Part shown: in pieces, positions 21,541-35,138 of the stretch
How positions within the stretch are numbered: position 1 is the first letter of the stretch
Layout: every line of letters begins with the position of its first letter
DNA from: Bacteroidales bacterium
GTDB lineage: Bacteria; Bacteroidota; Bacteroidia; Bacteroidales; UBA1715
Direction: 5' to 3'
NCBI GenBank assembly: GCA_017552705.1
Contig: JAFZOY010000010.1
Span: 3,486 to 67,485 of the forward strand
Length of the DNA stretch: 64,000 nt
Translations under genes and position numbers: made by a program
Notes under the pieces: generated by a model
Seen by the model: the letters and a program-made list of their open reading frames with translations, nothing else
Database searches by the model: none
Told to the model about the DNA's origin: nothing

Positions 21541-22128
21541 TTATTCGTAACGCTTTTCAACCACGCTCCAGTCAACAATCTGCCACAAAGCAGCCAAGTG
21601 GTCGGGACGACGATTTTGGTAATCCAAATAATATGCGTGTTCCCACACGTCGAACGTGAGCAACGGACGCAAACCCTGTTGGATAGGATTTGACGCATTT
21701 GTTTCTTGGGTAATCACCAACTTGCCGTTTTTGTCAGCCGAAAGCCACACCCAGCCAGAACCAAAAAGTGTAGCTCCTTTTTTCTGAAATTCATCCTTGA
21801 ATGCGTCGAACGAGCCAAAATCGCGAGTTATGGCATCGGCCAATTTTCCCATTGGCACTGATTTTGGAGCTTTGGCAAATTGTTCGAAATATAAATTATG
21901 GTTCAAAATCTGACCTGCATTATTGCGAATGCCTCCATCGGATTTCAGTACGATTTCTTCCAACGAAAGATTCTGAAAATCAATCCCTTGTATCAAATTA
22001 TTGAGATTATTCACATATCCAGCCAAATGTTTGCCGTGATGAAATTCTATTGTTTGTTTACTAATTATTGGTTCCAATGCATCGGCTGCATACGGAAGTT
22101 TCATCAATTCAAAAGCTTTTGTTTCCAT
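21541..22128 (-). CDS. sodB: Superoxide dismutase, Fe/Mn family
   Basis: Supporting segments are LPYAADALEPIISKQTIEFHHGKHLAGYV and the C-terminal metal-ligand motif FDVWEHAYYLDYQNRRPD. Metal specificity cannot be told from the sequence alone. Confidence 0.93.
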   Translation of the reverse strand: METKAFELMKLPYAADALEPIISKQTIEFHHGKHLAGYVNNLNNLIQGIDFQNLSLEEIVLKSDGGIRNNAGQILNHNLYFEQFAKAPKSVPMGKLADAITRDFGSFDAFKDEFQKKGATLFGSGWVWLSADKNGKLVITQETNASNPIQQGLRPLLTFDVWEHAYYLDYQNRRPDHLAALWQIVDWSVVEKRYE

Positions 22129-22250: not shown

Positions 22251-22817
22251 TCAATCGAATGGAATTATGTAAGAAAGTTCTTTCATGTGAGTAATGATTC
22301 CATCGCAGATTTCCTCGTTAAAGTGCCGCAATGCCTTATAAAACAAATCATTCGGAAAATGTATAAACATATCGTCGTTGAAAAATTTTATTATACAATG
22401 ACAACTGTTGTACTTTGTACGTGTTTCGTCAAATTCAACTGAATCAAATTGAGGAATCCCTTTTTCCATAATTGACAATTTACTGTCAGCCAACTGAAAA
22501 CGTGAACTTCCTTCAAACGAAAATGGGAACACCAATGCACCAATCACCAAAATATCTCTTGAAACGCAAGCGTTCATGATTGACAGTACTGTCAAGTCAT
22601 CGTCGCCACCAAGACAATTCAGCAAACATACATATTTCACGTCTTGGGGAACAACCAACTTCAGCATTGATTGCCATTGAGCATCGGCGGAATCAAAATA
22701 AACATCTTTGCGGATTGTAGCCACGGAAAAATGTTCCGAAAGTTTTTCCATGTTTTGTTCCACAATGTTGATTGCCCCGTCGCCAACGGCAAGCAGTAAA
22801 ACGTTATTCTCGTTCAT
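22251..22817 (-). CDS. Short divergent FtsZ/tubulin-like protein (N-terminal GTPase-domain fold only, nucleotide signature lost)
   Basis: I aligned it by eye with E. coli FtsZ. VLLLAVGDGAINIVEQNME matches VIKVIGVGGGGGNAVEHMV. KYVCLLNCLGGDDDLTVLSIMNACVSRDILVIGALVFPFSFEGSSR matches [47 protein letters not shown]. The PFSFEG motif is retained, but the tubulin signature GGGTGTG is replaced by LGGDDDL. At 188 aa it has no C-terminal (T7-loop) domain. Confidence 0.6.
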   Translation of the reverse strand: MNENNVLLLAVGDGAINIVEQNMEKLSEHFSVATIRKDVYFDSADAQWQSMLKLVVPQDVKYVCLLNCLGGDDDLTVLSIMNACVSRDILVIGALVFPFSFEGSSRFQLADSKLSIMEKGIPQFDSVEFDETRTKYNSCHCIIKFFNDDMFIHFPNDLFYKALRHFNEEICDGIITHMKELSYIIPFD

Positions 22818-22822
22818 TTCTT

Positions 22823-23854
22823 TTATAATTTTATAATAAACTGATTTTCCTCTAAATTCTTCAGTGCCATTTCAACGCCTTGTGCAACGGAATAAAATGT
22901 ATCGTCAACGAGTTTGACTTTAATTTTAGTCTTTCTGCTCAAACGTTCTGCTAAACCATATAGCATTGCTCCTCCACCCGACAGCCAAATTCCGTCAACA
23001 GCAAAGTCGTTGAACAATTCAGGGGGGACACGTTCCAGTACGTTTGACACGGCGTTTTCAATCTTCGTCAATGGTTCGTGCAGACATTCGGCTATTTCGT
23101 TCGGAGAAAGTTTTACTTCGATTTGCTCAGCCGTGACTATGTGCGCTCCAGAAACAACATAGTACGCTTGCGGATTTTCCATATCTACAAGCGCCGTTCC
23201 CGACGTTCTCTTTATTCCTTCCGCCGTACATTCACTAACTTTTATATTATGATTGATTCGCAATCCTTCCTGAATCGCCGCTGTAAAGGCTTCGCCACCA
23301 ATAGGAATACTTTCGCACACAACAATTCCGCCCATACAAATCACCGCAATCTGTGTTTTTCCGCCACCAATTTCAATTATCATTTTGCCCAAGACATTAT
23401 TCACATTCAATCCTTGGGCAATTGCAACGGCAAAAATCGAAGGAATCAGATACACATTGTTACATCCAAGGTTTTTGAACGCTTCGCGAAAAACAAGGCG
23501 GTCGCCATACGTGAAATCCAGAGGGATTCCTATTCCGATTTTCGTTTCTGCCGATATGGAACATTTTTTCTTTGCTTCCAACAGCAACTCCAGAACCAAA
23601 AGTTCAACGCTGTTGTAAAACATACTGTCATTTTTCATTGGTTGAATGATTTTAACCGTTGAAATGTTCCGCCCTTTCATATTCCTTGCCTCGTCCCACT
23701 TGCAGCAAACTTTGGGACCTTTGCTTTCCATTTCAATACCTAACCACGATGGCACATCAACAAGTACGTTTCCACCAGCTACAACAACCGAGTTGACCGT
23801 TCCCAAATCGAATGCGACAATGGGAAAATTGTTTTGTTCTTTTAAAATTTCCAT
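22823..23854 (-). CDS. MreB-like actin-family ATPase
   Basis: At 343 aa it is MreB-sized. The phosphate-1 motif is VAFDLGTVNSVVV and phosphate-2 is MIIEIGGGKTQIAVICMGGIV. IPIGGEAFTAAIQEGLRINHNIKVSECTAEGIK parallels MreB VRVAGDEMDEAI…IGERTAEEIK. The adenosine motif is GIWLSGGGAMLYGLAERLSRKTKIKV. Confidence 0.8.
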   Translation of the reverse strand: MEILKEQNNFPIVAFDLGTVNSVVVAGGNVLVDVPSWLGIEMESKGPKVCCKWDEARNMKGRNISTVKIIQPMKNDSMFYNSVELLVLELLLEAKKKCSISAETKIGIGIPLDFTYGDRLVFREAFKNLGCNNVYLIPSIFAVAIAQGLNVNNVLGKMIIEIGGGKTQIAVICMGGIVVCESIPIGGEAFTAAIQEGLRINHNIKVSECTAEGIKRTSGTALVDMENPQAYYVVSGAHIVTAEQIEVKLSPNEIAECLHEPLTKIENAVSNVLERVPPELFNDFAVDGIWLSGGGAMLYGLAERLSRKTKIKVKLVDDTFYSVAQGVEMALKNLEENQFIIKL

Positions 23855-23861
23855 TTTTCTA

Positions 23862-24482
23862 CTATTTATAAAAAGTAACCATTGGACTGTTTAATTTGTC
23901 GATAAATCTTTTCAACCGATAGCGAAAAATAAACGACCTGTAATTATTTGATGAAATATGAAAAATTACTTCTGCAATGACTTTATGTGCCTCTTGTAAG
24001 GCGGAAGACAAAGGCATTTTGCCATATTGTTCCTTGATTTGTTGATTATGTAAAACAATGGTGGCAGTAGCTTTTTCGCCTAATAACTTCAAGGCATGCT
24101 TCGCCTTTTCTGTTGCTCCTTCAACATCATACGGCAGAATGCCGATACCGATAACTGTGCTTCCATTCTTTTGTAATGCTTCAGCTAGAACATTTGCCAT
24201 AGCCCCAGTTTTTCCTTCAAGTCCTACAATTACTATAGAAAGACGACCTTTAAACCTTGAAAAATCAATGATATCATTTACATTTACAACAATATCCTCT
24301 GCGTTTGTTGGAACGTTTTCCTTTTCCATAGATAATTCCATTCCCTTGAAATGCCAACAACAAAACTGAATTTGGAGATTAGCATTGTGTTGCAAATTGC
24401 GTCGAACATCACTGACAACACTGATACCAACTTTACCAATACCGATTAAGGAGATTTTTTCTTGTTTCTTTGAATGTTTCAT
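23862..24482 (-). CDS. Short divergent FtsZ/tubulin-like protein (N-terminal GTPase domain through helix H7, degenerate signature)
   Basis: [18 protein letters not shown] matches the FtsZ strand1/G-box. [69 protein letters not shown] matches [93 protein letters not shown] matches LLDAFGAANDVLKGAVQGIAELI. It is 206 aa and has no C-terminal domain. Confidence 0.6.
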   Translation of the reverse strand: [206 protein letters not shown]

Positions 24483-24504
24483 ATTAGTAATTTTATGTTT
24501 TCTG

Positions 24505-24556
24505 TTGCAAACATAAACGCAAGGTGTGCCATATCAGGGCAGAGGTTGAAAAAAAT
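24505..24556 (+). repeat. Intergenic direct repeat family, copy 1
   Basis: The sequence is ttgcaaacataaacgcaaggtGTGCCATATCAGGGCAGAGG-TTGAAAAAAAt. It matches copies at 26949, 27582 and 28946. Confidence 0.85.
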
Positions 24557-24562
24557 ATGGCT

Positions 24563-24585
24563 GTGCCGTGTTTTGGCAGAGGTTG
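24563..24585 (+). repeat. Partial tandem reiteration of the repeat core
   Basis: GTGCCgtgttttGGCAGAGGTTG mirrors GTGCCatatcagGGCAGAGGTTG 40 nt upstream. Confidence 0.6.
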
Positions 24586-24614
24586 TATATACGTTTGTGA
24601 AAAATCTGATAGAA

Positions 24615-25265
24615 ATGAATATAGAAAAACTTTACGAGAACCCGAAACTTGTTGATATAGAGGAAACCATTCTCTCTCTTGAAGAACATCCTTGCAAAAA
24701 CAACGACAATGAAATCGAGAGACTTTTTCTTGAACGAAAGAAATTTCTTGACGCAGCGTTTCCTTTCAACAACGAAACATCGAAACTTTTGAGAACATTC
24801 AACGAAAGTCTTCGTAATGCGCTTGTTGAAACGTATGAAAAAACAAAAGAATACTACGACAAAGTACTACGTTGGAACGATGACAAAACATTTCGTGTGG
24901 AATCGAAACTGACGTTAGGCGAATATCCTGCGTTACACCCAATACAAACAGAGCGTAGCCACGATATTTGGAACATTTTGTCATACGGCGGTTACGATAA
25001 CTATTACGACCTCGTAGGCATAAACGATTTATTTATGGATAAAGATTGTCCAGAAAACATCAACACCTTAGACTATTTCCTATATCTTGGAAGAGCAGGC
25101 GAAAGGGTTGATAATTGGAACGAACATCTGCCGACAGATTGGAGCAAGGATATGAATTTGCTCTATGGATTCCATAACCTTTACGACCACACATGGTTCA
25201 GCCTTTACGACTTTATTTTCGTTCGTGAATTTGAACAGAATTATGAGATTTATATTGATAGGTGA
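24615..25265 (+). CDS. Hypothetical protein (216 aa), no recognisable family
   Basis: The start was refined to ATG 24615 (MNIEKLYENPKL). The ORF-track extension from 24474 runs through the intergenic repeat. Composition is coding-like and the protein is W/Y/D/N-rich. Confidence 0.55.
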   Translation: MNIEKLYENPKLVDIEETILSLEEHPCKNNDNEIERLFLERKKFLDAAFPFNNETSKLLRTFNESLRNALVETYEKTKEYYDKVLRWNDDKTFRVESKLTLGEYPALHPIQTERSHDIWNILSYGGYDNYYDLVGINDLFMDKDCPENINTLDYFLYLGRAGERVDNWNEHLPTDWSKDMNLLYGFHNLYDHTWFSLYDFIFVREFEQNYEIYIDR

Positions 25266-25279
25266 ATTAAATTATTACT

Positions 25280-26422
25280 TCAATGTTTGCATTCATTTAT
25301 CAATTTCTTAAAAAACGAGTAAGCCTCATTGTATTCTCCGAGACCAAAGCATCTATGTATCCCTTGATTCTCATTAGGGAGTTCAATTTCTGATTTTTTT
25401 AATTTTAATTTTTCTCTCACCATTTCTCTTTTGTCTTCTGGTAAAGGAGCTATTCCCACGTAAAAATTGCCATATGGGTCTGTATGACCACCTGAAATGG
25501 AAACGTTAACATTTCCACATTCCATAAATTTTTCTATTGTTACTTGTGTAATCGGCCAATACCCATTCTGACTTGGTTTTAAAGTCTTAAAATCAGTTTC
25601 CGTGTTTGTTCTCCATTTATCGTATAAATCTTCAAATTTCTTATTACACAATTGATTCATTTGTTCAACAACTAAAGAAATATTGTCTTTGTCTATTAGG
25701 AGTTTATCTATGTCTTTTGTATTATAATGCTCCTCAATCAAGTTATTTAATTCCATATTCATATTATAATAAATTGAACCTGTTCTAAACATTTTATTTC
25801 CCTCTAAATAATCAACGTATTGCAATAATGCAGACGATAAAAACACATCTTTCTGACGTACATTAGGAATAACTATGGATTTTAACCATGGCAGAATATC
25901 ATATCTGAAAGACAAATTAATGTATCTTGATTTGAAACTTTCTTTATATTCTCCCCACGACTGCGAGTCTGGTTCTTTCCCATCTCTTGAAAGGTAAATC
26001 ACAAAAATTTGCTCTTCTTTATATTTTTTCTCTTTGGTTCTTTCAATATATCGACAAATTTGAGCATCTTGATCTTCCGCATTATATACTTTATTTTCAA
26101 AGATGATTGCATAATCATCATCACGAACCCATAAATCAATTCTTTCCTTTTCTTGAGTAATTGTAGGGTTTGTAATTTTTATTTCTCCAAAGTTTGGATT
26201 TTTCTGCTTTACAGAATCTAACAAAGATTGCAAGATTTCATATTCGTTCTTTTCGTTTTTATACTGCAACAATTTTGTCAATACCCGACTATGCCCGTTT
26301 TCATTAATGTGCAATTCATCAATTATATTGACATGATAAGGAAGTTTATTTTCTTCCTCCTCTTTCTTTTTCCTAAATTCTTTGGAAAAATTTAATAAGT
26401 CTTCTAATTCTTGTTTTTCCAT
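25280..26422 (-). CDS. PD-(D/E)XK nuclease-superfamily protein (PDDEXK_4-like architecture)
   Basis: The start was refined to ATG 26422 (MEKQELEDLL). H…NENGHSRVLTKLL is followed by the core motif ERIDLWVRDDDYAIIFENKV (D…E-x-K), then QICRY. The gene is AT-rich. Confidence 0.6.
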   Translation of the reverse strand: MEKQELEDLLNFSKEFRKKKEEEENKLPYHVNIIDELHINENGHSRVLTKLLQYKNEKNEYEILQSLLDSVKQKNPNFGEIKITNPTITQEKERIDLWVRDDDYAIIFENKVYNAEDQDAQICRYIERTKEKKYKEEQIFVIYLSRDGKEPDSQSWGEYKESFKSRYINLSFRYDILPWLKSIVIPNVRQKDVFLSSALLQYVDYLEGNKMFRTGSIYYNMNMELNNLIEEHYNTKDIDKLLIDKDNISLVVEQMNQLCNKKFEDLYDKWRTNTETDFKTLKPSQNGYWPITQVTIEKFMECGNVNVSISGGHTDPYGNFYVGIAPLPEDKREMVREKLKLKKSEIELPNENQGIHRCFGLGEYNEAYSFFKKLINECKH

Positions 26423-26499
26423 ACAACAAATTTGCAGTAAATATACAAGTTTTTCAAAAAAAAACGGCAAGACGAATTTATCATCTTGCCGCCACAATC

Positions 26500-26689: not shown

Positions 26690-26902
26690 TTAGTTATTGA
26701 TTTCACTATCGTTTTCCACTTTTTTGATACACTCCTCAACATCGGCAATCAACTTTTTTAAGAATTCTGTTTTTGCGGTTTTGTCGGGAAAATTATCAGG
26801 ATTGGATTTGAATTCCATATCAATTAACTCTCTAATCGTAAATTCCCATCCCATACCATCTTCGTCTGGGGCAACGTAAAAATAATAATCGTTCATATCC
26901 AT
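26690..26902 (-). CDS. Hypothetical small acidic protein (70 aa)
   Basis: The ORF has coding-like composition (MDMNDYYFYVAPDEDGMGWEFTIRELIDMEF…). I recognised no family. Confidence 0.45.
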   Translation of the reverse strand: MDMNDYYFYVAPDEDGMGWEFTIRELIDMEFKSNPDNFPDKTAKTEFLKKLIADVEECIKKVENDSEINN

Positions 26903-27021: not shown

Positions 27022-27570
27022 TCAATCATTCACCACCACCAAACATACCCGTATTGGTTCCGTCATTGATTCGTCTAATAAATAATTCCATAAAATATAG
27101 GTATCGTCTTGAGACTTATGGAGATACGAAAATATTTCCTCAAGTTCCCCTGTAGTAGGTTCGTTTTCTACGTTGTTAACGGCAATAAGCATCATAATTC
27201 GATGTGGGAACTGCAATTTGCTGAAATTCTCTTCACACTGAACTTGTAAATCGTTGATAAAAGGGTGTTTCAACGCATTTTCGTACGCTTCTTTGAGCGT
27301 TTTTCCATAACCACTCGAGACAAAAATTGCCTTCTCGCACGTGGTTTCATCTCCATTTTCGCCAACAAGAAAATGCTTTACATCAAGGTAATCAATGGAT
27401 ACCCAAGATACTTTGTAGCAACTTTCCCAAATACCATTCGCCACAACTTTCGCTTCGGCGTTTGTGATGGTTTCAAACTCGTTTTCGCCCAAAACTGTGG
27501 CAATCATCTTTTTCAACTGCTTGCCCGTTTCCGTCCAGTCTTTGTCTACATTAAAATCTAACAATTCCAT
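27022..27570 (-). CDS. Hypothetical protein (182 aa), no recognisable family
   Basis: This is a clean ORF bounded on both sides by repeat copies 2 and 3 (MELLDFNVDKDWTETGKQLKKMIATVLGENEFE…). Confidence 0.5.
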   Translation of the reverse strand: MELLDFNVDKDWTETGKQLKKMIATVLGENEFETITNAEAKVVANGIWESCYKVSWVSIDYLDVKHFLVGENGDETTCEKAIFVSSGYGKTLKEAYENALKHPFINDLQVQCEENFSKLQFPHRIMMLIAVNNVENEPTTGELEEIFSYLHKSQDDTYILWNYLLDESMTEPIRVCLVVVND

Positions 27571-27632: not shown

Positions 27633-27726
27633 CATGAATTTCTTAGAAATTTTTTGCCTCGCCAAAAAAAATTATTACATTTGTCTAATAAAATTATTAG
27701 ATACACCTAATAAAATTTTTAACACA

Positions 27727-28914
27727 ATGAAAAGAACTATATATCAAACGGTTATAAATCGTTTAAAAGAGCCAAGAAAGTTTATCCAAGTATTGTTTGG
27801 ACCTCGTCAGGTGGGAAAAACAACGTTGATGACACAGGTTCTCGAAGAAATTGAAACGCCATATCTGTTTGTTACCGCCGACGATATTGCAGGCATGGAC
27901 GATGCGTGGTTGCATACGGTTTGGAATCGAGCCCGTGTGGAACAAAGCGAGAAAAAAGACCAAGATTTTTTATTGGTTATTGACGAGGTTCAAAAGATTC
28001 AGAATTGGAGCGAGATAGTAAAAAAGGAATGGGATGCCGATACGCAAAGCCATCGGCCGATAAAAGTTGTTTTACTTGGCTCCTCGTCGTTGTTGATTCA
28101 AAAAGGTTTGTCGGAATCACTGGCTGGGAGGTTTGAGCAGATGTATATCACCCACTGGTCGTATGCCGAAATGAAAGAAGCATTTGATTTTTCGATTGAC
28201 CAGTATATTATGTACGGTGGCTATCCCGGGGCTGCTTCGCTTGTCGGCGATGAACAGCGATGGCGTAGTTACGTGCGTCAGTCGTTGGTGGAAACAACTC
28301 TGTCGAAGGATATTCTTATGATGACACAGGTGAACAAGCCCATTCTGCTTCGACGGCTGTTTGACATTGGTAGTTCGTATTCCGCACAAATTCTTTCGCT
28401 GAACAAAATTCAAGGGGAGCTGAACGAGAAAGGAAATCTTACGACTTTGGGCGGGTATCTCGACCTTTTAAACGCGGCAGGTCTGTTGTGCGGTCTCGAC
28501 AAATATGCGGGAAGCATTATCTACCAACGTGCCTCGAAACCTAAACTGCAAGTTCACAATAATGCCTTGATGAGCATTCAAAGTATGAAAACTCTTGCAG
28601 AAGCAAAAGCAGACACAACATATTGGGGACGTTTGGTGGAATCAGCAGTTGGCACACATTTGTTAAATTATTCGAAGACAGAAGGTTATGAATTATATTA
28701 TTGGAACGAAAATTCCAAGGAAGTGGACTTTGTGTTGAAATGTGGAGAAAAAATTGTGTCGCTGGAAGTAAAAAGCGGTGTTGATTCCCAAAACGAAGGC
28801 ATAGCCTTGTTTCAAGGGAAATTTCATCCATCGTTGTCACTTGTGATTGGTACGGACGGAATACCATTTGAAAAGTTTTTCACAATGAATCCCTTAGAGC
28901 TTTTTAAAATTTAG
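27727..28914 (+). CDS. AAA-family ATPase with a C-terminal DUF4143-like (restriction-endonuclease-like) domain
   Basis: The start was refined to ATG 27727 (MKRTIYQTV). Walker A is LFGPRQVGKTTL and Walker B is LLVIDEVQK. The C-terminal segment YYWNENSKEVDFVL…EVKSG is typical of this widespread family. Confidence 0.8.
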   Translation: MKRTIYQTVINRLKEPRKFIQVLFGPRQVGKTTLMTQVLEEIETPYLFVTADDIAGMDDAWLHTVWNRARVEQSEKKDQDFLLVIDEVQKIQNWSEIVKKEWDADTQSHRPIKVVLLGSSSLLIQKGLSESLAGRFEQMYITHWSYAEMKEAFDFSIDQYIMYGGYPGAASLVGDEQRWRSYVRQSLVETTLSKDILMMTQVNKPILLRRLFDIGSSYSAQILSLNKIQGELNEKGNLTTLGGYLDLLNAAGLLCGLDKYAGSIIYQRASKPKLQVHNNALMSIQSMKTLAEAKADTTYWGRLVESAVGTHLLNYSKTEGYELYYWNENSKEVDFVLKCGEKIVSLEVKSGVDSQNEGIALFQGKFHPSLSLVIGTDGIPFEKFFTMNPLELFKI

Positions 28915-28945: not shown

Positions 28946-28991
28946 GCAAAAAAACAAAGGTATGCCAAATCAAGGCAGAGGTTTGAAAAAT
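28946..28991 (+). repeat. Intergenic direct repeat family, copy 4
   Basis: The sequence is gcaaaaaaacaaaggTATGCCAAATCAAGGCAGAGGTTTGAAAAAt. Confidence 0.85.
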
Positions 28992-29083
28992 TGTTTTCAA
29001 AAATTGAATTACTTCAGTTTTCTGTAACTAAACAACGCCTTTGCTTATATATTTGCATTGGTTACAATAGAAAGGAATCACTT

Positions 29084-29494
29084 ATGGGACGAATACTTGC
29101 TATAGATTACGGAACGAAGCGCACGGGAATTGCGGTCACCGACCCGTTGCAACTCATTGCCAACGCGTTGACAACAGTGCGAAGCTGCGATTTGATACAA
29201 TTTCTTACGGACTATTTTGCCAAGGAACAAGTTGACCACGTGGTGATTGGTATGCCCACAACGCTCCGTAACGAACCCTCGGAAAATGCAAAACATGTGA
29301 AAATTTTTGAGAAACAGTTTCAAAAAACATTTCCCAATATGCCCATCAGCGAGATGGACGAACGATTTACCTCAACGATTGCACATCAGGCGATGCTTGC
29401 CGGCGGCATGAAGAAAAAAGACCGCCAAAACAAAGAAGTTGTCGATAGCATCAGCGCCACTATCATTCTGCAATCGTATATGGAACGAAGATAA
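29084..29494 (+). CDS. ruvX: Holliday-junction resolvase-like nuclease RuvX (YqgF)
   Basis: The start was refined to ATG 29084. MGRILAIDYGTKRTGIAVTD and DERFTS…A motifs are present, and the protein is 136 aa. Confidence 0.9.
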   Translation: MGRILAIDYGTKRTGIAVTDPLQLIANALTTVRSCDLIQFLTDYFAKEQVDHVVIGMPTTLRNEPSENAKHVKIFEKQFQKTFPNMPISEMDERFTSTIAHQAMLAGGMKKKDRQNKEVVDSISATIILQSYMERR

Positions 29495-29497
29495 ATA

Positions 29498-29908
29498 TTA
29501 ATTCCTTGAAGCTATTTCATCTAAAATTTTGATTTTTTCTTCATTAGATAAATCTATAAAACCGAGGGTAAAACAATTGAAATATTTCTCATAATATTTT
29601 TGTTCTTGCAACATAGACATTGTCATCCAATCTTTGTTTAATTTTTGGTCCTCAAGTTCATAGAATTCATTAGATCTCAATGTGCATACAGAAGTATTTT
29701 GCTTTAAATCCACTCTGTATGAATAAACTAACAATTGATACTTATTATCTATATATCTTAAAAATTCTATAACTCCATAATCTTGCGTCTTGCTATAAAT
29801 TGTCACAAGAGTTTCTTTTTGAGCAACATTCATAGATACAAAATCTTGTTTATATAGAGAGCATGAATGTAGAAAAAACACAATATTTAATAATAATAAC
29901 TTTTTCAT
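29498..29908 (-). CDS. Hypothetical lipoprotein (136 aa)
   Basis: It has a lipobox-type signal, MKKLLLLNIVFFLHSCS. The coding sequence is very AT-rich. Confidence 0.5.
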   Translation of the reverse strand: MKKLLLLNIVFFLHSCSLYKQDFVSMNVAQKETLVTIYSKTQDYGVIEFLRYIDNKYQLLVYSYRVDLKQNTSVCTLRSNEFYELEDQKLNKDWMTMSMLQEQKYYEKYFNCFTLGFIDLSNEEKIKILDEIASRN

Positions 29909-29977
29909 TTTAATACTTTATATGATTGAGATGCCAAAACATTGTAAATTCCCGTGTTATAAATGGCATATTCGATT

Positions 29978-30757
29978 TCATTCTACCCATATTGCTTGGG
30001 TTGCATTGCAAGAAAAAATATTCTCATTGCTATTAGTGTCATATACGAAACACTGATTTCCTTTTTTATATAAAATATATTTATCGTCGTTTGAATATAA
30101 TGGACAACAGCCTTCAATATAAAAATCCTTAAATTCATTTTTGTGTATATTATATTCCACAATAGTCGGAAGCTCTTTTATTTTCCTCCAATCATATTTT
30201 CCAACAATTCTCTCACAGATTATTTTTTCCCTATCAGAAGAAAAAGATGGATTAAAATATCCTATTTTATAACCTTTATCAATTTGTTTTGGTTCAAGAA
30301 TAGAGAAAATATTTCCATTGCTGTCTTTGGTTTCTACAAATCCCATATTGTTTAATATCTGTATTTTATTACAATATAAATCCTCTATATTTGTTATAGA
30401 AAGATGCTCTAATTCAGAATTAGAAACTCTATAGAAATATTTATTTTCTATTATTGTGTCATTTTTTAATGTCACATCATTTTCGTCAAATTCCACAATA
30501 ATTTCGGATAAAAATTTATTTTGATAAAAGAAATAATAATCATTCTTTTTGTATAATGTTACAATATATTTGTTGTCGTGATGGTAACAACATCCAAATT
30601 CCCAGAGTTCAAGATTATTGATCGAAATTATCTCTTTTTGAATATTGCGCTCCATATCATAAAATATAAGTTTATCGTTATCAGATATGACAATGTTTTG
30701 TAAAGCAATAGCATTTTGTATAAACAAAGTAAAAAATATTACAAATAGTACTCTCAT
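29978..30757 (-). CDS. Hypothetical secreted protein (259 aa)
   Basis: It has a signal peptide MRVLFVIFFTLFIQNAIA. The protein is N/K/I/Y-rich with paired Cys (GCCYHH, GCCPLY) and is very AT-rich. Confidence 0.5.
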   Translation of the reverse strand: MRVLFVIFFTLFIQNAIALQNIVISDNDKLIFYDMERNIQKEIISINNLELWEFGCCYHHDNKYIVTLYKKNDYYFFYQNKFLSEIIVEFDENDVTLKNDTIIENKYFYRVSNSELEHLSITNIEDLYCNKIQILNNMGFVETKDSNGNIFSILEPKQIDKGYKIGYFNPSFSSDREKIICERIVGKYDWRKIKELPTIVEYNIHKNEFKDFYIEGCCPLYSNDDKYILYKKGNQCFVYDTNSNENIFSCNATQAIWVE

Positions 30758-30760
30758 AAT

Positions 30761-30958
30761 TTATTGTATTAAAGTACTTCCCTTTTTTGGACAGTTAAAT
30801 TTTAATTTATAGAGTATTTTAGAAAGAAGAAGTTCGTTTGTATTATCTGGGTAATCCATAAGATACAACTGATTTAACGAATCGTAGAAATAGCGATATA
30901 TAAAATTCATTGCACGATATTTATTTTCTCCTTTTTGTTGGTTTTGTATCATATTCAT
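30761..30958 (-). CDS. Possible small protein (65 aa, or 49 aa from ATG 30910)
   Basis: The ORF overlaps the end of the upstream gene by 38 nt unless the internal Met (MNFIYRYFYD) is used. I recognised no family. Confidence 0.25.
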   Translation of the reverse strand: MNMIQNQQKGENKYRAMNFIYRYFYDSLNQLYLMDYPDNTNELLLSKILYKLKFNCPKKGSTLIQ

Positions 30959-31943
30959 GCCAAAAGTTTAAACTTATAATGGCGTCACAATTATTATGAT
31001 TTCCTATGTCTAAGGTTATAAATTCATCACACGTCGTTGGATATGCTTTTTCAAGGCAACGATTCCTTTCTCCTTTAAAAAAGGATCCTTTTGAAACACC
31101 AGGAGCAGAAAAGTCAACTCGTTTCCCCTTAAAATCGAAATTTCCTCGACACGATTTAAATATACAATTCAAATAATCCGCTTCATATTCGTTTAGAAGC
31201 AGATTATTATCTATACCCATTCTGTCGAAATTATCTATTACTTCTTTGGGTATATCGTCAAACGATATTCTTGAAGATTCTTTTGTTATAGTGTCCTTAA
31301 TCACAGAGTAATTCTTAATTCCTTCCTTATCCTCATAGAGGATTTGCACATCATTTTCGAAAACACAATAATAACACTGATTTTTTTCTCCAGTGTAAGC
31401 GAAGATAAATTTGGGAGATAATCGTAATATGGTGGATAGAACTTCTCTACTCATAGAGAAGTTTACCGAATCCCATTTCATATAAAACATTTGAGCGACC
31501 CCGACTGGTGTTTCCCCTTGTTTTTTATATATCCAACAATTATGTGTGGAGAAAAATTTCTTATTTCTGCTTGAGTAAAGTATTATTCGGTTATAGAAAT
31601 CATCTATCGAACTAAAATACAATTTTTTACAGTCTAAAGACAATTCATTGTCAATGCATTCAATTACAGAACAGAACAGAGAATTAAGTTCCTCTACGGG
31701 CGTTTTAATTCGACAATTTTTTTTCGCCCTTTTAATAGCAATTTTGTTTTTTTGGTGAATATTATAATCTGCATAATCATCTATTACGACAACCTTATAG
31801 GGACTTTTGTTATATCCAAATATGGCTTTCTTTGGAGGAAGTGTAATTTTTACTTGTTGTGCAAAACAAAATTCAGTAAATATGGAAAGAACAGCAAGTA
31901 ATATTAAGACTCTTGTTTTTCTTTGTGGGTTTAAATGTATCAT
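30921..31943 (-). CDS. Hypothetical secreted protein (~340 aa)
   Basis: The start was refined to ATG 31943 (MIHLNPQRKTRVLILLAVLSIFTEFCFAQQ, a signal peptide). It is AT-rich with no recognisable domain. Confidence 0.5.
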   Translation of the reverse strand: MIHLNPQRKTRVLILLAVLSIFTEFCFAQQVKITLPPKKAIFGYNKSPYKVVVIDDYADYNIHQKNKIAIKRAKKNCRIKTPVEELNSLFCSVIECIDNELSLDCKKLYFSSIDDFYNRIILYSSRNKKFFSTHNCWIYKKQGETPVGVAQMFYMKWDSVNFSMSREVLSTILRLSPKFIFAYTGEKNQCYYCVFENDVQILYEDKEGIKNYSVIKDTITKESSRISFDDIPKEVIDNFDRMGIDNNLLLNEYEADYLNCIFKSCRGNFDFKGKRVDFSAPGVSKGSFFKGERNRCLEKAYPTTCDEFITLDIGNHNNCDAIISLNFWHEYDTKPTKRRK

Positions 31944-32037
31944 ACATGTATCGAGTTTAGTTATTCCACACAAATATACTGCATTATTTCTTTTTTCGAC
32001 TTGTTTTCATACATTTGCACGTTCAAAAACAAAAATT

Positions 32038-34137: not shown

Positions 34138-34223
34138 TCCCCACGTAGATAACGTTTTCTTTCGAGAAAATCAGTATATTTGCAGATAAGAAAATTTGTG
34201 CACTAACGTTCTTTTTTGTGGCG

Positions 34224-35138
34224 ATGGAAGATTTTTTTTCAAAAACAAATTATACGATTCAAGATATTCTGGCACTTATCGAGAATGAAATTGAAGAGTC
34301 AATCCATCTTGAATTCAAATCAGCGGGAGCTATCGGGAAATGGGACAGCAAGAAAGCGGAAATGACCAAAGATGTGGCGGCTTTCGCCAACTCCGACGGA
34401 GGAATCATTGTGTACGGACTTTCGGAATGCAACCACAAGGCGAGCGCGCTGTCGTTCATCGACGGGACCATTTTCACAAAAGAATGGATCGAACAAGTGC
34501 TAAATTCAGGCATTCAGCAGAAAATCAATGGGTTACAAATCTTCCCTATTCGCAACAACGGCAACATTGAGCAATCAATCTACGTGGTAAAAATCCCCAA
34601 AAGTTTCAACACGCCACACATGAGCAAAGACCGGAAATTCTATCGTCGATACAATTTCGAGGCGGTTCCTATGGAAGAATACGAAATTCGTGAACTCTAT
34701 AACCGAAAGAGCCACAGTAAGTTGCTTATTCAGGGATATTATCTTGGGAAATTCAGCGAAAACGCTGAAACGCAAACGTACCATTTCCTTGCCCAGATTG
34801 CCAACGAATGCGCACGGCCAGAATCGTCGTACAAACTAAATATCTACATCAACTGTCCTGATTTAGACAAAATGTCAATCACATGGGAACAAAACGAAAA
34901 TTTCTCGTTCACGATGATTGCGCCCAACAAAGTAAAACTTTCAGCAACAGGAAGCATTCCCATCTACACAGATGAATGTCTTGATATGGCGCGGTTTTCG
35001 TTGGAAATTCCCAACAAAATTTTTGACAAAATCACCGAAGAAATGTCAATAGACATGATTCTCCTCTATTCAGACGGAAAAAACGAGTTTCATATTTCAA
35101 ACGAAACAGTGCGGAAACGACTGATTTCATTTAACTAA
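34224..35138 (+). CDS. AlbA_2 (Schlafen-like divergent AAA/DNA-binding) domain protein with an uncharacterised C-terminal half
   Basis: The N-terminus ESIHLEFKSAG…EMTKDVAAFANSDGGIIVYGL is the hallmark of the AlbA_2 domain. ATG 34224 is preferred over GTG 34218. Confidence 0.6.
   Translation: MEDFFSKTNYTIQDILALIENEIEESIHLEFKSAGAIGKWDSKKAEMTKDVAAFANSDGGIIVYGLSECNHKASALSFIDGTIFTKEWIEQVLNSGIQQKINGLQIFPIRNNGNIEQSIYVVKIPKSFNTPHMSKDRKFYRRYNFEAVPMEEYEIRELYNRKSHSKLLIQGYYLGKFSENAETQTYHFLAQIANECARPESSYKLNIYINCPDLDKMSITWEQNENFSFTMIAPNKVKLSATGSIPIYTDECLDMARFSLEIPNKIFDKITEEMSIDMILLYSDGKNEFHISNETVRKRLISFN

What the first reader, a model, noticed from the sequence alone, without database searches (positions are those of the whole stretch)
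22251..24482. Tight operon of an MreB-like actin homologue flanked by two truncated, divergent FtsZ/tubulin-like proteins - candidate undescribed cytoskeletal module
Three minus-strand genes are separated by only 7 and 5 nt. The order is a 206-aa protein, a 343-aa protein and a 188-aa protein.

The middle protein has all three actin-fold ATPase motifs in MreB-like form: DLGTVNS, IEIGGGKTQIAV and LSGGGAMLYGL.

Both flanking proteins align by eye with the FtsZ N-terminal GTPase domain. The alignment covers strand 1/G-box, the helix after the tubulin signature, the PFxFEG strand and, for the 206-aa protein, on to helix H7. Both stop there, so the C-terminal T7-loop domain needed for polymer-activated GTP hydrolysis is missing.

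Actin-like and tubulin-like genes are neighbours in the dcw cluster (ftsA-ftsZ) and in magnetosome islands (mamK, ftsZm). I know of no described system pairing an MreB paralogue with two half-FtsZ paralogues. The operon borders an accessory island, so it may be an accessory rather than a core division function.
Basis: partly seen in the sequence, partly recalled or inferred. Interest (0 to 1): 0.9.

Follow-up and report, generated by a model that had tools for sequence, protein, structure and literature searches.

The report
MreB-like gene with FtsZ half-proteins
A rumen Bacteroidales genome carries, inside a phage-defence-type variable island, a tight operon of a catalytically degenerate MreB copy flanked by two proteins that are only the front half of FtsZ. 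A separate gene for only the back half of FtsZ lies nearby, and this combination has not been described and has no known function.

Summary
**Observation: confirmed.** Three minus-strand ORFs of 206, 343 and 188 aa sit 7 and 5 nt apart.

**What the proteins are**
- The middle protein (B) is a clear but divergent MreB-family protein. It lacks the catalytic Glu and Thr and the N-terminal amphipathic helix.
- Both flanking proteins (A and C) are homologues of the FtsZ N-terminal domain and end after helix H7. A is shown by sequence, C by a predicted structure.
- Their GTP loops are deleted or degenerate.

**New finding.** A 182-aa ORF 2.5 kb upstream (27022-27570, same strand) is an FtsZ C-terminal half. 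It keeps both T7-loop aspartates.

**Why this is not a fixed triad**
- In related contigs A is replaced by an OLD-like ATPase or a UDG-like gene.
- B is replaced by a 75-aa ORF.
- C often stands alone.
- Neighbours are defence genes or defence candidates.
- All relatives found come from a few uncultured Bacteroidales. Those with named hosts are ruminant.

**Selection.** B, C and the C-half are under purifying selection. A is only weakly constrained.

**Best reading (inferred):** an accessory conflict module of non-polymerising cytoskeleton mimics. They would bind or cap FtsZ/MreB-type polymers, or bind the inhibitors of those polymers.

partly supported.

The parts
23862..24482 (-). A: 206-aa FtsZ N-terminal-domain-only protein with degenerate GTP loops and a conserved basic C-terminal tail
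   Evidence: **Homology to FtsZ.** NCBIfam TIGR00065 E 1.4e-11. PDB FtsZ 2r6r E 6e-7. hhalign against Bacteroidales FtsZ: probability 93.6% over FtsZ residues 101-205.

**Motifs.** T1 is GKVGIS, T2/T3 are deleted, T4 is EGKTGAM, T5 is PYDVEG, and N165 is kept.

**Rarity.** Only 5 clusters in 5.8 billion proteins.

**Selection.** dN/dS 0.34-0.99.

**Limit.** The AlphaFold2 model failed, with pLDDT 35.
22823..23854 (-). B: 343-aa divergent MreB-family protein, predicted to be hydrolysis-impaired and without the N-terminal amphipathic helix
   Evidence: **Family.** Pfam MreB_Mbl E 3e-68. It falls below the NCBIfam mreB cut-offs: 237 vs 293 and 206 vs 366.

**Clade.** 8 clusters are at least 52% identical. 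Canonical MreBs are at most 41% identical.

**Substitutions.** LIEEP/LIYEP becomes LIPSI. DIGGGTTE becomes EIGGGKTQ. The roles of these residues are taken from PMC6965359.

**Selection.** dN/dS 0.17-0.41.
22251..22817 (-). C: 188-aa FtsZ N-terminal-domain-only protein, likely a pseudo-GTPase
   Evidence: **Structure.** AlphaFold2 pLDDT 77, pTM 0.79. The top 50 listed Foldseek PDB matches are all FtsZ.

**Conserved motifs.** Invariant LNCLGG, PFSFEG and an N/D/M motif (NDDM here). T4 is GGDDDLT and T2/T3 are deleted.

**Rarity.** 53 clusters. Only 12 representatives in 1.84 billion proteins.

**Selection.** dN/dS 0.18-0.31.
27022..27570 (-). w182: 182-aa FtsZ C-terminal-half protein (H6/H7, T7 loop and C-domain). 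Found here; not part of the original finding.
   Evidence: **Profile evidence.** The family profile (A7) scores 30.8 and 28.8 bits against Parabacteroides and Bacteroides FtsZ, over FtsZ residues 171/191-317. hhalign gives probability 93.3%, E 2.8e-7, over 151 columns.

**PDB.** The top profile hit is FtsZ 9lfx residues 201-308, at E 0.031.

**Pfam.** The L093 homologue hits FtsZ_C at E 0.004.

**T7 loop.** Invariant D60 and D63 align with E. coli FtsZ D209 and D212.

**Selection.** dN/dS 0.16-0.33 among close relatives and 0.52 against the most distant homologue compared, L013.

**Co-occurrence.** It occurs with the C family in 7 loci.
26690..26902 (-). w70: 70-aa recurrent small ORF of the island; function unknown
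   Evidence: Its homologues sit directly downstream of the B homologue in L018 and L024. It has no family hit.
25280..26497 (-). PDDEXK_4 nuclease-superfamily gene; a recurrent upstream neighbour
   Evidence: Pfam PF14281 E 8e-20. PADLOC candidate PDC-S26 E 1e-34. It lies upstream of A or C in L003, L004, L009 and L010; in L023 only a partial C-terminal PDC-S26 match lies two genes upstream of B.
24474..25265 (+). p263: opposite-strand ORF between PDDEXK_4 and A; an insertion/deletion-polymorphic segment
   Evidence: It has no family hits. Only its two ends are present in L009 and L010.
27634..28914 (+). AAA_14/DUF4143 ATPase at the far edge of the island
   Evidence: Pfam AAA_14 and DUF4143. 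PADLOC PDC-S01 E 4e-174. Core genes flank the island: sodB at 21541-22128 and ruvX at 28991-29494.

Best explanation
**What it is (shown).**
- The operon A-B-C and the nearby gene w182 are accessory, horizontally shuffled paralogues of the bacterium's cytoskeletal proteins.
- B is an MreB-family protein without the catalytic Glu/Thr and without the membrane-binding N-terminal helix.
- A and C are FtsZ N-domain-only proteins that end after H7. Their nucleotide loops are deleted or degenerate.
- w182 is an FtsZ C-half that keeps the two T7-loop aspartates.
- All of them sit in a ~6.8-kb variable island between sodB and ruvX. The island is otherwise filled with defence-candidate genes.

**How it most likely works (inferred).**
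- None of the FtsZ-derived proteins has both longitudinal interfaces, so none can extend a filament.
- They would instead act in trans as binders of FtsZ/tubulin-type and MreB/actin-type polymers.
- An N-half offers only the 'top' face. It would block the growing, T7-exposing end.
- The C-half offers only the T7 'bottom' face. It would dock on a GTP-bound top face.
- The MreB-like protein would similarly co-assemble with or cap MreB.
- Alternatively, all of them serve as decoys that soak up foreign proteins aimed at FtsZ and MreB.
- Either way the module would serve conflict (phage or competitor) and not housekeeping division.
For: **Identity of the parts:**

**Derivation from host genes.**
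- The L018 211-aa mini-FtsZ has all GTP motifs intact.
- It is 40-43% identical to Bacteroidales FtsZ.
- It bridges to both A and C.

**Catalytic degeneration:**, with residue roles from PMC6965359.

**The T7 aspartates are invariant in the w182 family down to 26-29% identity**. This argues that the loop still meets a nucleotide pocket. The pockets of A and C are degenerate.

**Defence context.**
- Window neighbours are PDC-S26 and PDC-S01.
- In related loci the gene directly upstream of B is an OLD/ATPase-Toprim-like HEC-04 ATPase (L011, L021).
- Other neighbours are GmrSD, a PLD of the DrmC type, McrBC, WYL regulators and RNase_T.

**Cassette-wise presence, absence and replacement, with sharp breakpoints at gene borders:**

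**Selection.**
- Purifying selection acts on B, C and w182. A is near neutral.
- Synonymous divergence (dS) of B is 5-10 times lower than that of C, so B spread recently beside old C alleles.

**Established knowledge.**
- FtsZ N and C domains fold independently (Oliva et al. 2004, via PMC7327170).
- FtsZ filaments grow at the T7-exposing end.
- Bottom-interface mutants and MciZ cap filaments and are toxic (PMC8936486).
Against: - There is no experimental datum.
- A, B and C have no hit in PADLOC, so defence is inferred from context only.
- A and C are only 14-25% identical to FtsZ, and their top-face loops (T2, T3, T4) are altered. Docking on host FtsZ is therefore uncertain, and faithful mimicry as a decoy is doubtful.
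- Co-occurrence of the parts is loose. w182 was not found within 6-8 kb of A-B-C in L009, L006 or L022. The 54%-identical B relatives (L015, L025) have no detectable FtsZ-like neighbour.
- Most loci come from related uncultured Bacteroidales, so repeated neighbourhoods may reflect shared ancestry and not function.
- No obvious effector or regulator is assigned to the module.
Confidence: 0.4

Rival explanations
1. Self-contained accessory cytoskeleton. The MreB-like protein polymerises. The FtsZ halves assemble on it, or reconstitute a two-domain FtsZ-like unit (N-half plus C-half), to position or move some cargo.
For: - The 5-7 nt spacing and the lack of an internal terminator suggest co-translation.
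- B is followed by C in all 8 loci where B is at least 90% identical.
- A different mini-FtsZ lies 2.3 kb from the 79%-identical B in L018.
- B, C and w182 are under purifying selection.
- The N-half and the C-half overlap at H7 and could in principle pair.
Against: - The catalytic Glu and Thr of MreB are replaced, and there is no membrane-binding helix.
- The GTP loops of A and C are deleted or degenerate.
- No half has both longitudinal interfaces.
- The parts are individually dispensable in close relatives.
- There is no cargo, adaptor or membrane partner.
- The locus is in a defence island.
Confidence: 0.2
2. Endogenous regulators that tune the host's own division or elongation. This would resemble the truncated FtsZ paralogues of Hyphomicrobiales, and would be unrelated to conflict.
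For: - Truncated FtsZ paralogues that inhibit division on overexpression are known, for example A. tumefaciens FtsZ1 (bioRxiv 10.1101/2025.09.29.679267).
- The mini-FtsZ lineage derives from Bacteroidales FtsZ.
Against: - The genes vary in presence between closely related contigs and sit at different chromosomal sites. The downstream flank is sodB in the window, GcpE in L011 and DUF1573/CE2 in L009.
- Distribution is very narrow.
- The neighbours are defence genes.
Confidence: 0.15
3. Functionless remnants: duplicated and truncated cytoskeletal genes decaying in a recombination hotspot.
For: - A has dN/dS up to about 1 in its N-terminal half.
- A is missing or replaced in L011, L021 and L023.
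- Catalytic motifs are lost in all parts.
Against: - All copies have intact reading frames.
- dN/dS is about 0.2-0.3 for B, C and w182 over dS up to 1.7.
- The C family has about 36 invariant columns across 26 sequences.
- The T7 aspartates are invariant in w182.
Confidence: 0.1
4. A partition system of a mobile element, of the actin-like ParM/AlfA or tubulin-like TubZ/PhuZ type.
For: Actin-like and tubulin-like segregation systems exist on plasmids and phages. B has a weak hit to a PHROG 'partition protein' (E 0.007).
Against: - No relatives of A or C were found in any phage or viral collection searched. C and w182 have none in IMG/VR and C none in plasmids. B matches only generic MreB at up to 36% identity.
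- There is no integrase, replication gene, relaxase or tRNA nearby.
- B is of the MreB type, not the ParM type.
- No DNA-binding adaptor gene is present.
Confidence: 0.03

Closest known systems
FtsZ (cell-division tubulin homologue): its N-terminal GTPase domain and its C-terminal T7 domain
   Same: - C has the FtsZ N-domain fold.
- A aligns with FtsZ residues about 101-205.
- w182 aligns with FtsZ residues 167-317, including the T7 loop.
- PFxFEG and N165 are kept.
   Different: - Each protein is only half of FtsZ.
- The tubulin signature is degenerate, and T2/T3 are deleted in A and C.
- There is no C-terminal linker or FtsA-binding peptide.
- The genes are not in the dcw cluster next to ftsA. 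Real Bacteroidales ftsZ genes are.
MreB (rod-shape actin homologue)
   Same: Full-length alignment with 1jce at E 1e-46. Phosphate-1 and adenosine motifs are present.
   Different: - At most 41% identical to canonical MreB.
- Below the NCBIfam mreB cut-offs.
- Catalytic Glu140 and Thr167 equivalents are replaced.
- No N-terminal amphipathic helix.
- No mreC/mreD next to it. The canonical relative P0067 has MreC downstream.
Truncated FtsZ paralogues of Hyphomicrobiales (for example A. tumefaciens FtsZ1) and magnetosome FtsZm
   Same: They are extra, shortened FtsZ copies. FtsZ1 inhibits division when overexpressed.
   Different: Per that paper's abstract these are duplications of the FtsZ GTPase. 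From my own knowledge they keep the whole two-domain core and lose only the C-terminal linker and peptide. Here the globular core itself is cut in half.
FtsZ filament cappers and sequesterers (MciZ, SulA; bottom-interface FtsZ mutants)
   Same: The proposed mode of action is the same: occupying one longitudinal interface so that the filament end cannot grow (PMC8936486).
   Different: Those are unrelated small proteins or point mutants. Here the putative capper would be an FtsZ-derived half-domain. No binding has been shown.
CbtA/CbeA (YeeV/YeeU) type IV toxin-antitoxin system acting on both FtsZ and MreB
   Same: It is an accessory module aimed at both cytoskeletal polymers. CbtA is noted as an MreB inhibitor in PMC6965359. 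Its action on FtsZ is from my own knowledge.
   Different: There is no sequence or fold relation. The resemblance is functional analogy only.
FtsZ-like Tubulin_2 families (FtsZl, Makarova & Koonin 2010)
   Same: They are sparse, divergent FtsZ-superfamily proteins with unusual architectures and contexts (PMC9871819).
   Different: A and C hit PF00091, not PF13809, even at E up to 10. The FtsZl proteins carry N- or C-terminal extensions and are not half-domains.

Membership tests
FtsZ/tubulin superfamily (homology) | N-terminal Rossmann-like GTPase-domain fold ending in core helix H7 | tested here: met
   **C:** the top 50 listed Foldseek PDB matches are all FtsZ, with E down to 5e-7. The secondary-structure order is S1-H1-...-S6-H6-H7.

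**A:** by sequence only. TIGR00065 E 1.4e-11 and hhalign probability 93.6%. Its structure model failed.
FtsZ proper (TIGR00065 equivalog) | Tubulin signature GGGTG[ST]G and intact T1-T4 nucleotide loops | tested here: not met
   A has GKVGIS at T1 and EGKTGAM at T4. C has GDGAIN at T1 and GGDDDLT at T4. T2 and T3 are deleted in both. Scores are 44 and 11 bits against a cut-off of 295.
FtsZ proper | N-domain and T7-loop C-domain in one polypeptide | tested here: not met
   A and C stop after H7. The C-half is a separate gene, w182.
FtsZ proper | dcw-cluster context (ftsA-ftsZ) | tested here: not met
   The window neighbours are sodB, PDDEXK_4 and an AAA_14 ATPase. Bacteroidales ftsZ follows ftsA.
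FtsZ C-terminal domain (PF12327), for w182 | T7 loop NxDFxD followed by the C-domain beta-sheet | tested here: inconclusive
   **For:** profile against Bacteroidales FtsZ gives 30.8 bits and hhalign probability 93.3%. D60 and D63 are invariant.

**Short of threshold:** Pfam gives no hit for w182 itself and E 0.004 for the L093 homologue. The PDB profile search gives E 0.031.
MreB/Mbl (PF06723) | Score above the Pfam gathering threshold over the full length | tested here: met
   230 bits against a cut-off of 27, covering residues 13-337.
MreB (NCBIfam PRK13927 / TIGR00904) | Score above the curated cut-off | tested here: not met
   237 against 293, and 206 against 366.
MreB (functional) | Catalytic Glu140 and Thr167 (C. 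crescentus numbering) | tested here: not met
   LIEEP/LIYEP becomes LIPSI. GGGTT becomes GGGKT. Residue roles are from PMC6965359.
MreB (functional) | mreC/mreD neighbours and a membrane-binding N-terminal helix | tested here: not met
   No mreCD next to B. The canonical relative P0067 has MreC downstream. The MGLFSFL-type N-terminus is absent.
Known anti-phage defence systems (PADLOC-DB 2.0) | Match to a model of a known or candidate system | tested here: not met
   A, B and C have no hit at E up to 0.1. Only the neighbours hit: PDC-S26 and PDC-S01.
FtsZl / Tubulin_2 (PF13809) | Match to PF13809 | tested here: not met
   PF13809 is not listed for A or C at E up to 10.
TubZ/PhuZ or ParM partition systems | Carried on a plasmid or phage, with an adaptor or centromere | tested here: not met
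   No relatives of A or C in any phage or viral collection searched, and none of C in plasmids. A was not searched against plasmids or IMG/VR. No mobile-element genes are nearby.

The most novel reading that the evidence does not exclude
This is a new kind of conflict system built from cytoskeleton mimics. Stand-alone halves of FtsZ (N-halves A and C, C-half w182) and a hydrolysis-dead MreB would act as filament-end cappers or as decoys. They would either arrest the infected cell's division and elongation, poison phage tubulin or actin, or neutralise phage or effector proteins that target FtsZ and MreB. Neighbouring nucleases (PDDEXK_4, PLD) might act as effectors.
Probability: 0.2. Interest if true: 0.85.

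Novelty: new variant of a known kind. Interest (0 to 1): 0.66.

Why it matters
- FtsZ and MreB are normally single, essential, whole proteins. Natural genes that encode only the N-half or only the T7-bearing C-half of FtsZ would be ready-made probes of filament polarity and capping. Here they are kept under selection next to a catalytically dead MreB.
- If the defence-island context reflects function, this would be the first immune or counter-attack module built from cytoskeletal paralogues.
- It would link to the known habit of phages of inhibiting FtsZ and MreB.
- Even if the function is more modest, it shows that public annotation hides unusual biology in rumen Bacteroidales. The entries read 'hypothetical protein' or 'rod shape-determining protein'.

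Tried and rejected
- **AlphaFold2 on A.** With only 5 homologues it gave pLDDT 35 and was unusable.
- **Direct comparison of the A and C families.** hhalign was not significant: E 0.04, probability 1.3%. The link was made through the L018 mini-FtsZ instead.
- **C-family profile against the PDB.**
  - The first hits were poxvirus uracil-DNA glycosylase at E 0.005 over 47 residues.
  - I rejected this as a local strand-loop match, because the whole-model fold search gave only FtsZ among the top 50 listed matches.
- **PADLOC and PHROGs on A, B and C.** Nothing specific.
- **Phage, viral-contig and plasmid searches.** No relatives of A or C in the phage collection, of C, B or w182 in IMG/VR, or of C in plasmids.
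- **Other neighbours tested against the A and C profiles.** All were negative:
  - the 175-aa and 313-aa ORFs beside the 54%-identical MreB relative (L015);
  - the 183-aa ORF upstream of the distant C relative (L093);
  - the 75-aa ORF that replaces B in L006.
- **Sigma-70 promoter scan.** At background level and not suited to Bacteroidota. A by-eye TAnnTTTG match (24508-24515, minus strand) upstream of A was not tested for significance.
- **Amphipathic character of A's conserved tail.** Only moderate: muH 0.63.
- **p263.** It has no similarity to the UDG-like neighbours of other loci.


Full report
**1. The observation**

The three minus-strand ORFs are exactly as described: A at 23862..24482 (206 aa), B at 22823..23854 (343 aa) and C at 22251..22817 (188 aa). 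The gaps are 7 and 5 nt. The consensus scan found no terminator-like site on the minus strand inside the block.

**2. The middle protein, B**

B matches Pfam MreB_Mbl over its whole length (E 3e-68) and T. maritima MreB 1jce (E 1e-46). It falls below both curated NCBIfam mreB cut-offs: 237 against 293, and 206 against 366.

A search of 5.8 billion protein clusters found only eight clusters at least 52% identical to B. The next hits are ordinary MreBs at 41% identity or less. One of those, P0067, is followed by mreC. B is not.

Aligned with canonical Bacteroidota MreBs and with 1jce, the B clade differs in three ways:
- It lacks the MGLFSFL-type N-terminus.
- It has LIPSI where MreB has LI(E/Y)EP.
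- It has EIGGGKTQ where MreB has DIGGGTTE.

These positions hold the catalytic Glu140 and the phosphate-contacting Thr167 of C. crescentus MreB (PMC6965359). B is therefore a divergent MreB paralogue that probably cannot hydrolyse ATP normally. Its dN/dS against relatives is 0.17-0.41, which indicates purifying selection.

**3. The flanking proteins, A and C**

*A.* It hits NCBIfam ftsZ (E 1.4e-11, residues 81-177), Pfam Tubulin (E 1e-7) and solved FtsZ structures (E 6e-7). hhalign against an alignment of three Bacteroidales FtsZ and E. coli FtsZ gives probability 93.6%. Its structure model failed for lack of homologues.

*C.* It is not detectable by single-sequence search. An AlphaFold2 model built from 26 homologues (pLDDT 77, pTM 0.79) finds only FtsZ among its top 50 listed matches in the PDB, with E 5e-7 to 2e-5 and TMq up to 0.69. 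Viral structures match far less well.

*A bridging sequence.* A 211-aa N-domain-only FtsZ on a related contig (L018) has all GTP motifs intact. It is 40-43% identical to Bacteroidales FtsZ. It hits both A and C (E 2e-9 and 4e-8) and no other ORF of the window at significance; the next hit is E 0.4.

*Motifs, from an alignment with E. coli FtsZ.*

| Motif | E. coli FtsZ | A | C |
|---|---|---|---|
| T1 | GGGGGN | GKVGIS | GDGAIN |
| T2/T3 | present | deleted | deleted |
| T4 signature | GGGTGTG | EGKTGAM | GGDDDLT |
| T5 | PFNFEG | PYDVEG | PFSFEG |
| N165 | present | kept | kept |

Both chains end after H7. However, these proteins are most likely pseudo-GTPases.

**4. A stand-alone FtsZ C-half in the same island**

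While checking neighbours I found that the 182-aa ORF at 27022..27570 (minus strand, 2.5 kb upstream of A) belongs to a small family (alignment A7, seven members down to 26-29% identity).
- Its profile matches Parabacteroides and Bacteroides FtsZ at 30.8 and 28.8 bits, over FtsZ residues 171/191-317.
- hhalign gives probability 93.3%, E 2.8e-7, over 151 aligned columns.
- The best PDB hit of the profile is FtsZ residues 201-308, at E 0.031.
- One family member touches Pfam FtsZ_C at E 0.004.
- The stretch VSIDYLDVKHFL aligns with the T7 loop VNLDFADVKTIL. The two aspartates are invariant in the family.
- dN/dS is 0.16-0.33 among close relatives and 0.52 against the most distant homologue compared, L013.

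The T7 domain is therefore not absent from the locus. It is encoded separately. Both the N-halves and the C-half include the H6-H7 region, so they are independent truncations and not one gene cut in two.

**5. Distribution and neighbourhood**

*Rarity.*
- A: 5 clusters.
- C: 53 clusters, and only 12 representatives among 1.84 billion proteins.
- In one genome per species of GTDB, the C family occurs in two Bacteroidales MAGs only, one from yak reticulum and one from sheep rectum.
- No relatives of A or C were found in the phage collection, of C, B or w182 in IMG/VR, or of C in plasmids. B matches only generic MreB at up to 36% identity.

*The triad is not fixed.*

| Arrangement | Loci |
|---|---|
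| A-B-C complete | window, L008, L009/L010, L022 |
| A replaced by an OLD/ATPase-Toprim-like ATPase | L011, L021 |
| A replaced by a UDG-like gene | L023 |
| B replaced exactly by a 75-aa ORF | L006, L007 |
| C alone, or as a 184-aa paralogue | L001-L005, L012, L013, L093 |
| 79%-identical B, followed by a 69-aa ORF; intact mini-FtsZ 2.3 kb downstream in L018 | L018, L024 |
| 54%-identical B, no detectable FtsZ-like neighbour | L015, L025 |

*Recombination.* Identity profiles show breakpoints exactly at gene borders. Synonymous divergence of B is 0.06-0.23 where that of C is about 1.0. B therefore spread recently beside old C alleles.

*Neighbours.* Across these loci they include PDDEXK_4 (PDC-S26), AAA_14-DUF4143 (PDC-S01), GmrSD, a PLD of the DrmC type, McrBC, WYL regulators, RNase_T and HigB.

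*The island in the window.* It spans about 22.2-28.9 kb, between sodB and ruvX. There is no tRNA or integrase nearby.

**6. Selection**

B, C and w182 are under purifying selection (dN/dS about 0.2-0.3). A is weakly constrained, at 0.34-0.99 and close to 1 in its N-terminal half. All copies have intact frames. The module as a whole is not junk. A may be either decaying or diversifying.

**7. Mechanism (inference)**

The N and C domains of FtsZ fold independently (Oliva et al. 2004, cited in PMC7327170). FtsZ filaments grow at the end that exposes the T7 loop. Proteins or mutants that block one longitudinal interface cap filaments and are toxic (PMC8936486).

A half-FtsZ has one longitudinal face only, so it cannot propagate a filament but could cap one. 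The invariant T7 aspartates of w182 suggest that it still meets a nucleotide pocket. The pockets of A and C are degenerate, so that pocket is more likely on a real FtsZ or tubulin.

Together with a hydrolysis-dead, anchor-less MreB and the defence-island setting, the most economical reading is a trans-acting module of cytoskeleton mimics. They would act as cappers or poisons of FtsZ/MreB-type polymers, or as decoys for foreign proteins that target those polymers. I hold this at about 0.4.

The main rivals are:
- a self-contained accessory cytoskeleton (0.2);
- endogenous tuning of division (0.15);
- decay (0.1);
- a mobile-element partition system (0.03).

*Weak points.*
- Identity to FtsZ is low.
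- The top-face loops of A and C are altered.
- Co-occurrence of the parts is loose.
- The sampled loci are related to one another.
- There are no experimental data.

**8. Comparison with what is known, and novelty**

The proteins are homologues of FtsZ and MreB but fail defining features of both families (see the membership table). They are not Tubulin_2/FtsZl proteins and not TubZ, PhuZ or ParM systems.

They also differ from the truncated FtsZ paralogues of Hyphomicrobiales. From my own knowledge, those keep the whole two-domain core.

Literature searches found no description of N-domain-only or C-domain-only FtsZ genes, or of MreB- or FtsZ-derived genes in defence islands. Public records call them 'hypothetical protein' or 'rod shape-determining protein'.

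I rate this as a new variant of known kinds, with a real chance (about 0.2) of being a new kind of conflict system.

**9. Not done**

Noticed in passing
window 27022-27570 (-): A 182-aa ORF that is a stand-alone FtsZ C-terminal half (H6/H7, T7 loop, C-domain). Both T7 aspartates are invariant in its family. It co-occurs with the C family in 7 loci, including loci that lack A and B.
   Followed up: yes
L018:5136-5771 (+): A 211-aa N-domain-only FtsZ with all GTP motifs intact (IGVGCGGCN, GGGCGTG, LPFDFEG). It is 40-43% identical to Bacteroidales FtsZ and lies 2.3 kb downstream of a 79%-identical B homologue. Other short N-only FtsZ-like proteins turned up in the profile search: P0185 (187 aa, next to RtcB), P0186 (160 aa) and P0183 (263 aa, with a hydrophobic N-terminal stretch that looks like a membrane helix, by eye).
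   Followed up: partly
window 26690-26902 (-); L018:2801-3010; L024:1055-1261: A 70-aa acidic ORF without any family hit. In the window it follows w182. In L018 and L024 its homologue sits directly after the MreB-like gene, in the place of C.
   Followed up: partly
L006:6867-7637 (-); L022:6259-7023 (-); L023:6883-7695 (+); L018:3363-4214 (+): A 256-283-aa family recurs directly beside A or B in four loci. One member has a weak uracil-DNA-glycosylase-superfamily hit (E 1.5e-5). It might be a DNA-glycosylase-type defence gene.
   Followed up: partly
window 24474-25265 (+): A 263-aa ORF on the opposite strand, between PDDEXK_4 and A, with no homologue or family hit. In L009 and L010 only its two ends remain, so the segment is an insertion/deletion polymorphism.
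   Followed up: partly
window 23862-23940 (-): residues about 180-206 of A: The C-terminal tail of A, [23 protein letters not shown], is nearly invariant in the family although the rest of A evolves fast. It is basic and moderately amphipathic (muH 0.63). It could be a membrane-binding or partner-binding peptide.
   Followed up: partly
window 29498-31973: A second low-GC stretch (GC 0.28-0.30) lies between ruvX and the peptide deformylase gene. It holds three minus-strand ORFs (136, 259 and 350 aa) without any Pfam hit, and is probably another inserted cassette.
   Followed up: no
window 34218-35138 (+): A 306-aa protein with a Schlafen/AlbA_2 domain (E 4e-14), placed between a ComEC-like competence gene and a lyase gene.
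   Followed up: no
L003:3762-4661 (+): An ADP-ribosylglycohydrolase gene lies just upstream of the PDDEXK_4 and C pair. From my own knowledge, immunity proteins against FtsZ-ADP-ribosylating toxins belong to this family. This is a possible lead for the decoy or immunity idea.
   Followed up: no
L001:6673-7014; L004:6674-7015; L018:4368-4721: A 113-117-aa protein made of three BNR/Asp-box-like repeats (SxxGxTW) follows the 184-aa C paralogue in L001 and L004. It also lies in the L018 island.
   Followed up: no
L015:3821-6767 (also L016, L017, L025): The 54%-identical MreB-like relative sits in a different small cassette between rplS and an Impact_N gene. The order is an HTH_3 gene, a 175-aa ORF, the MreB-like gene and a 313-aa acidic ORF. 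None of the flanking ORFs has a family hit or resembles FtsZ.
   Followed up: partly
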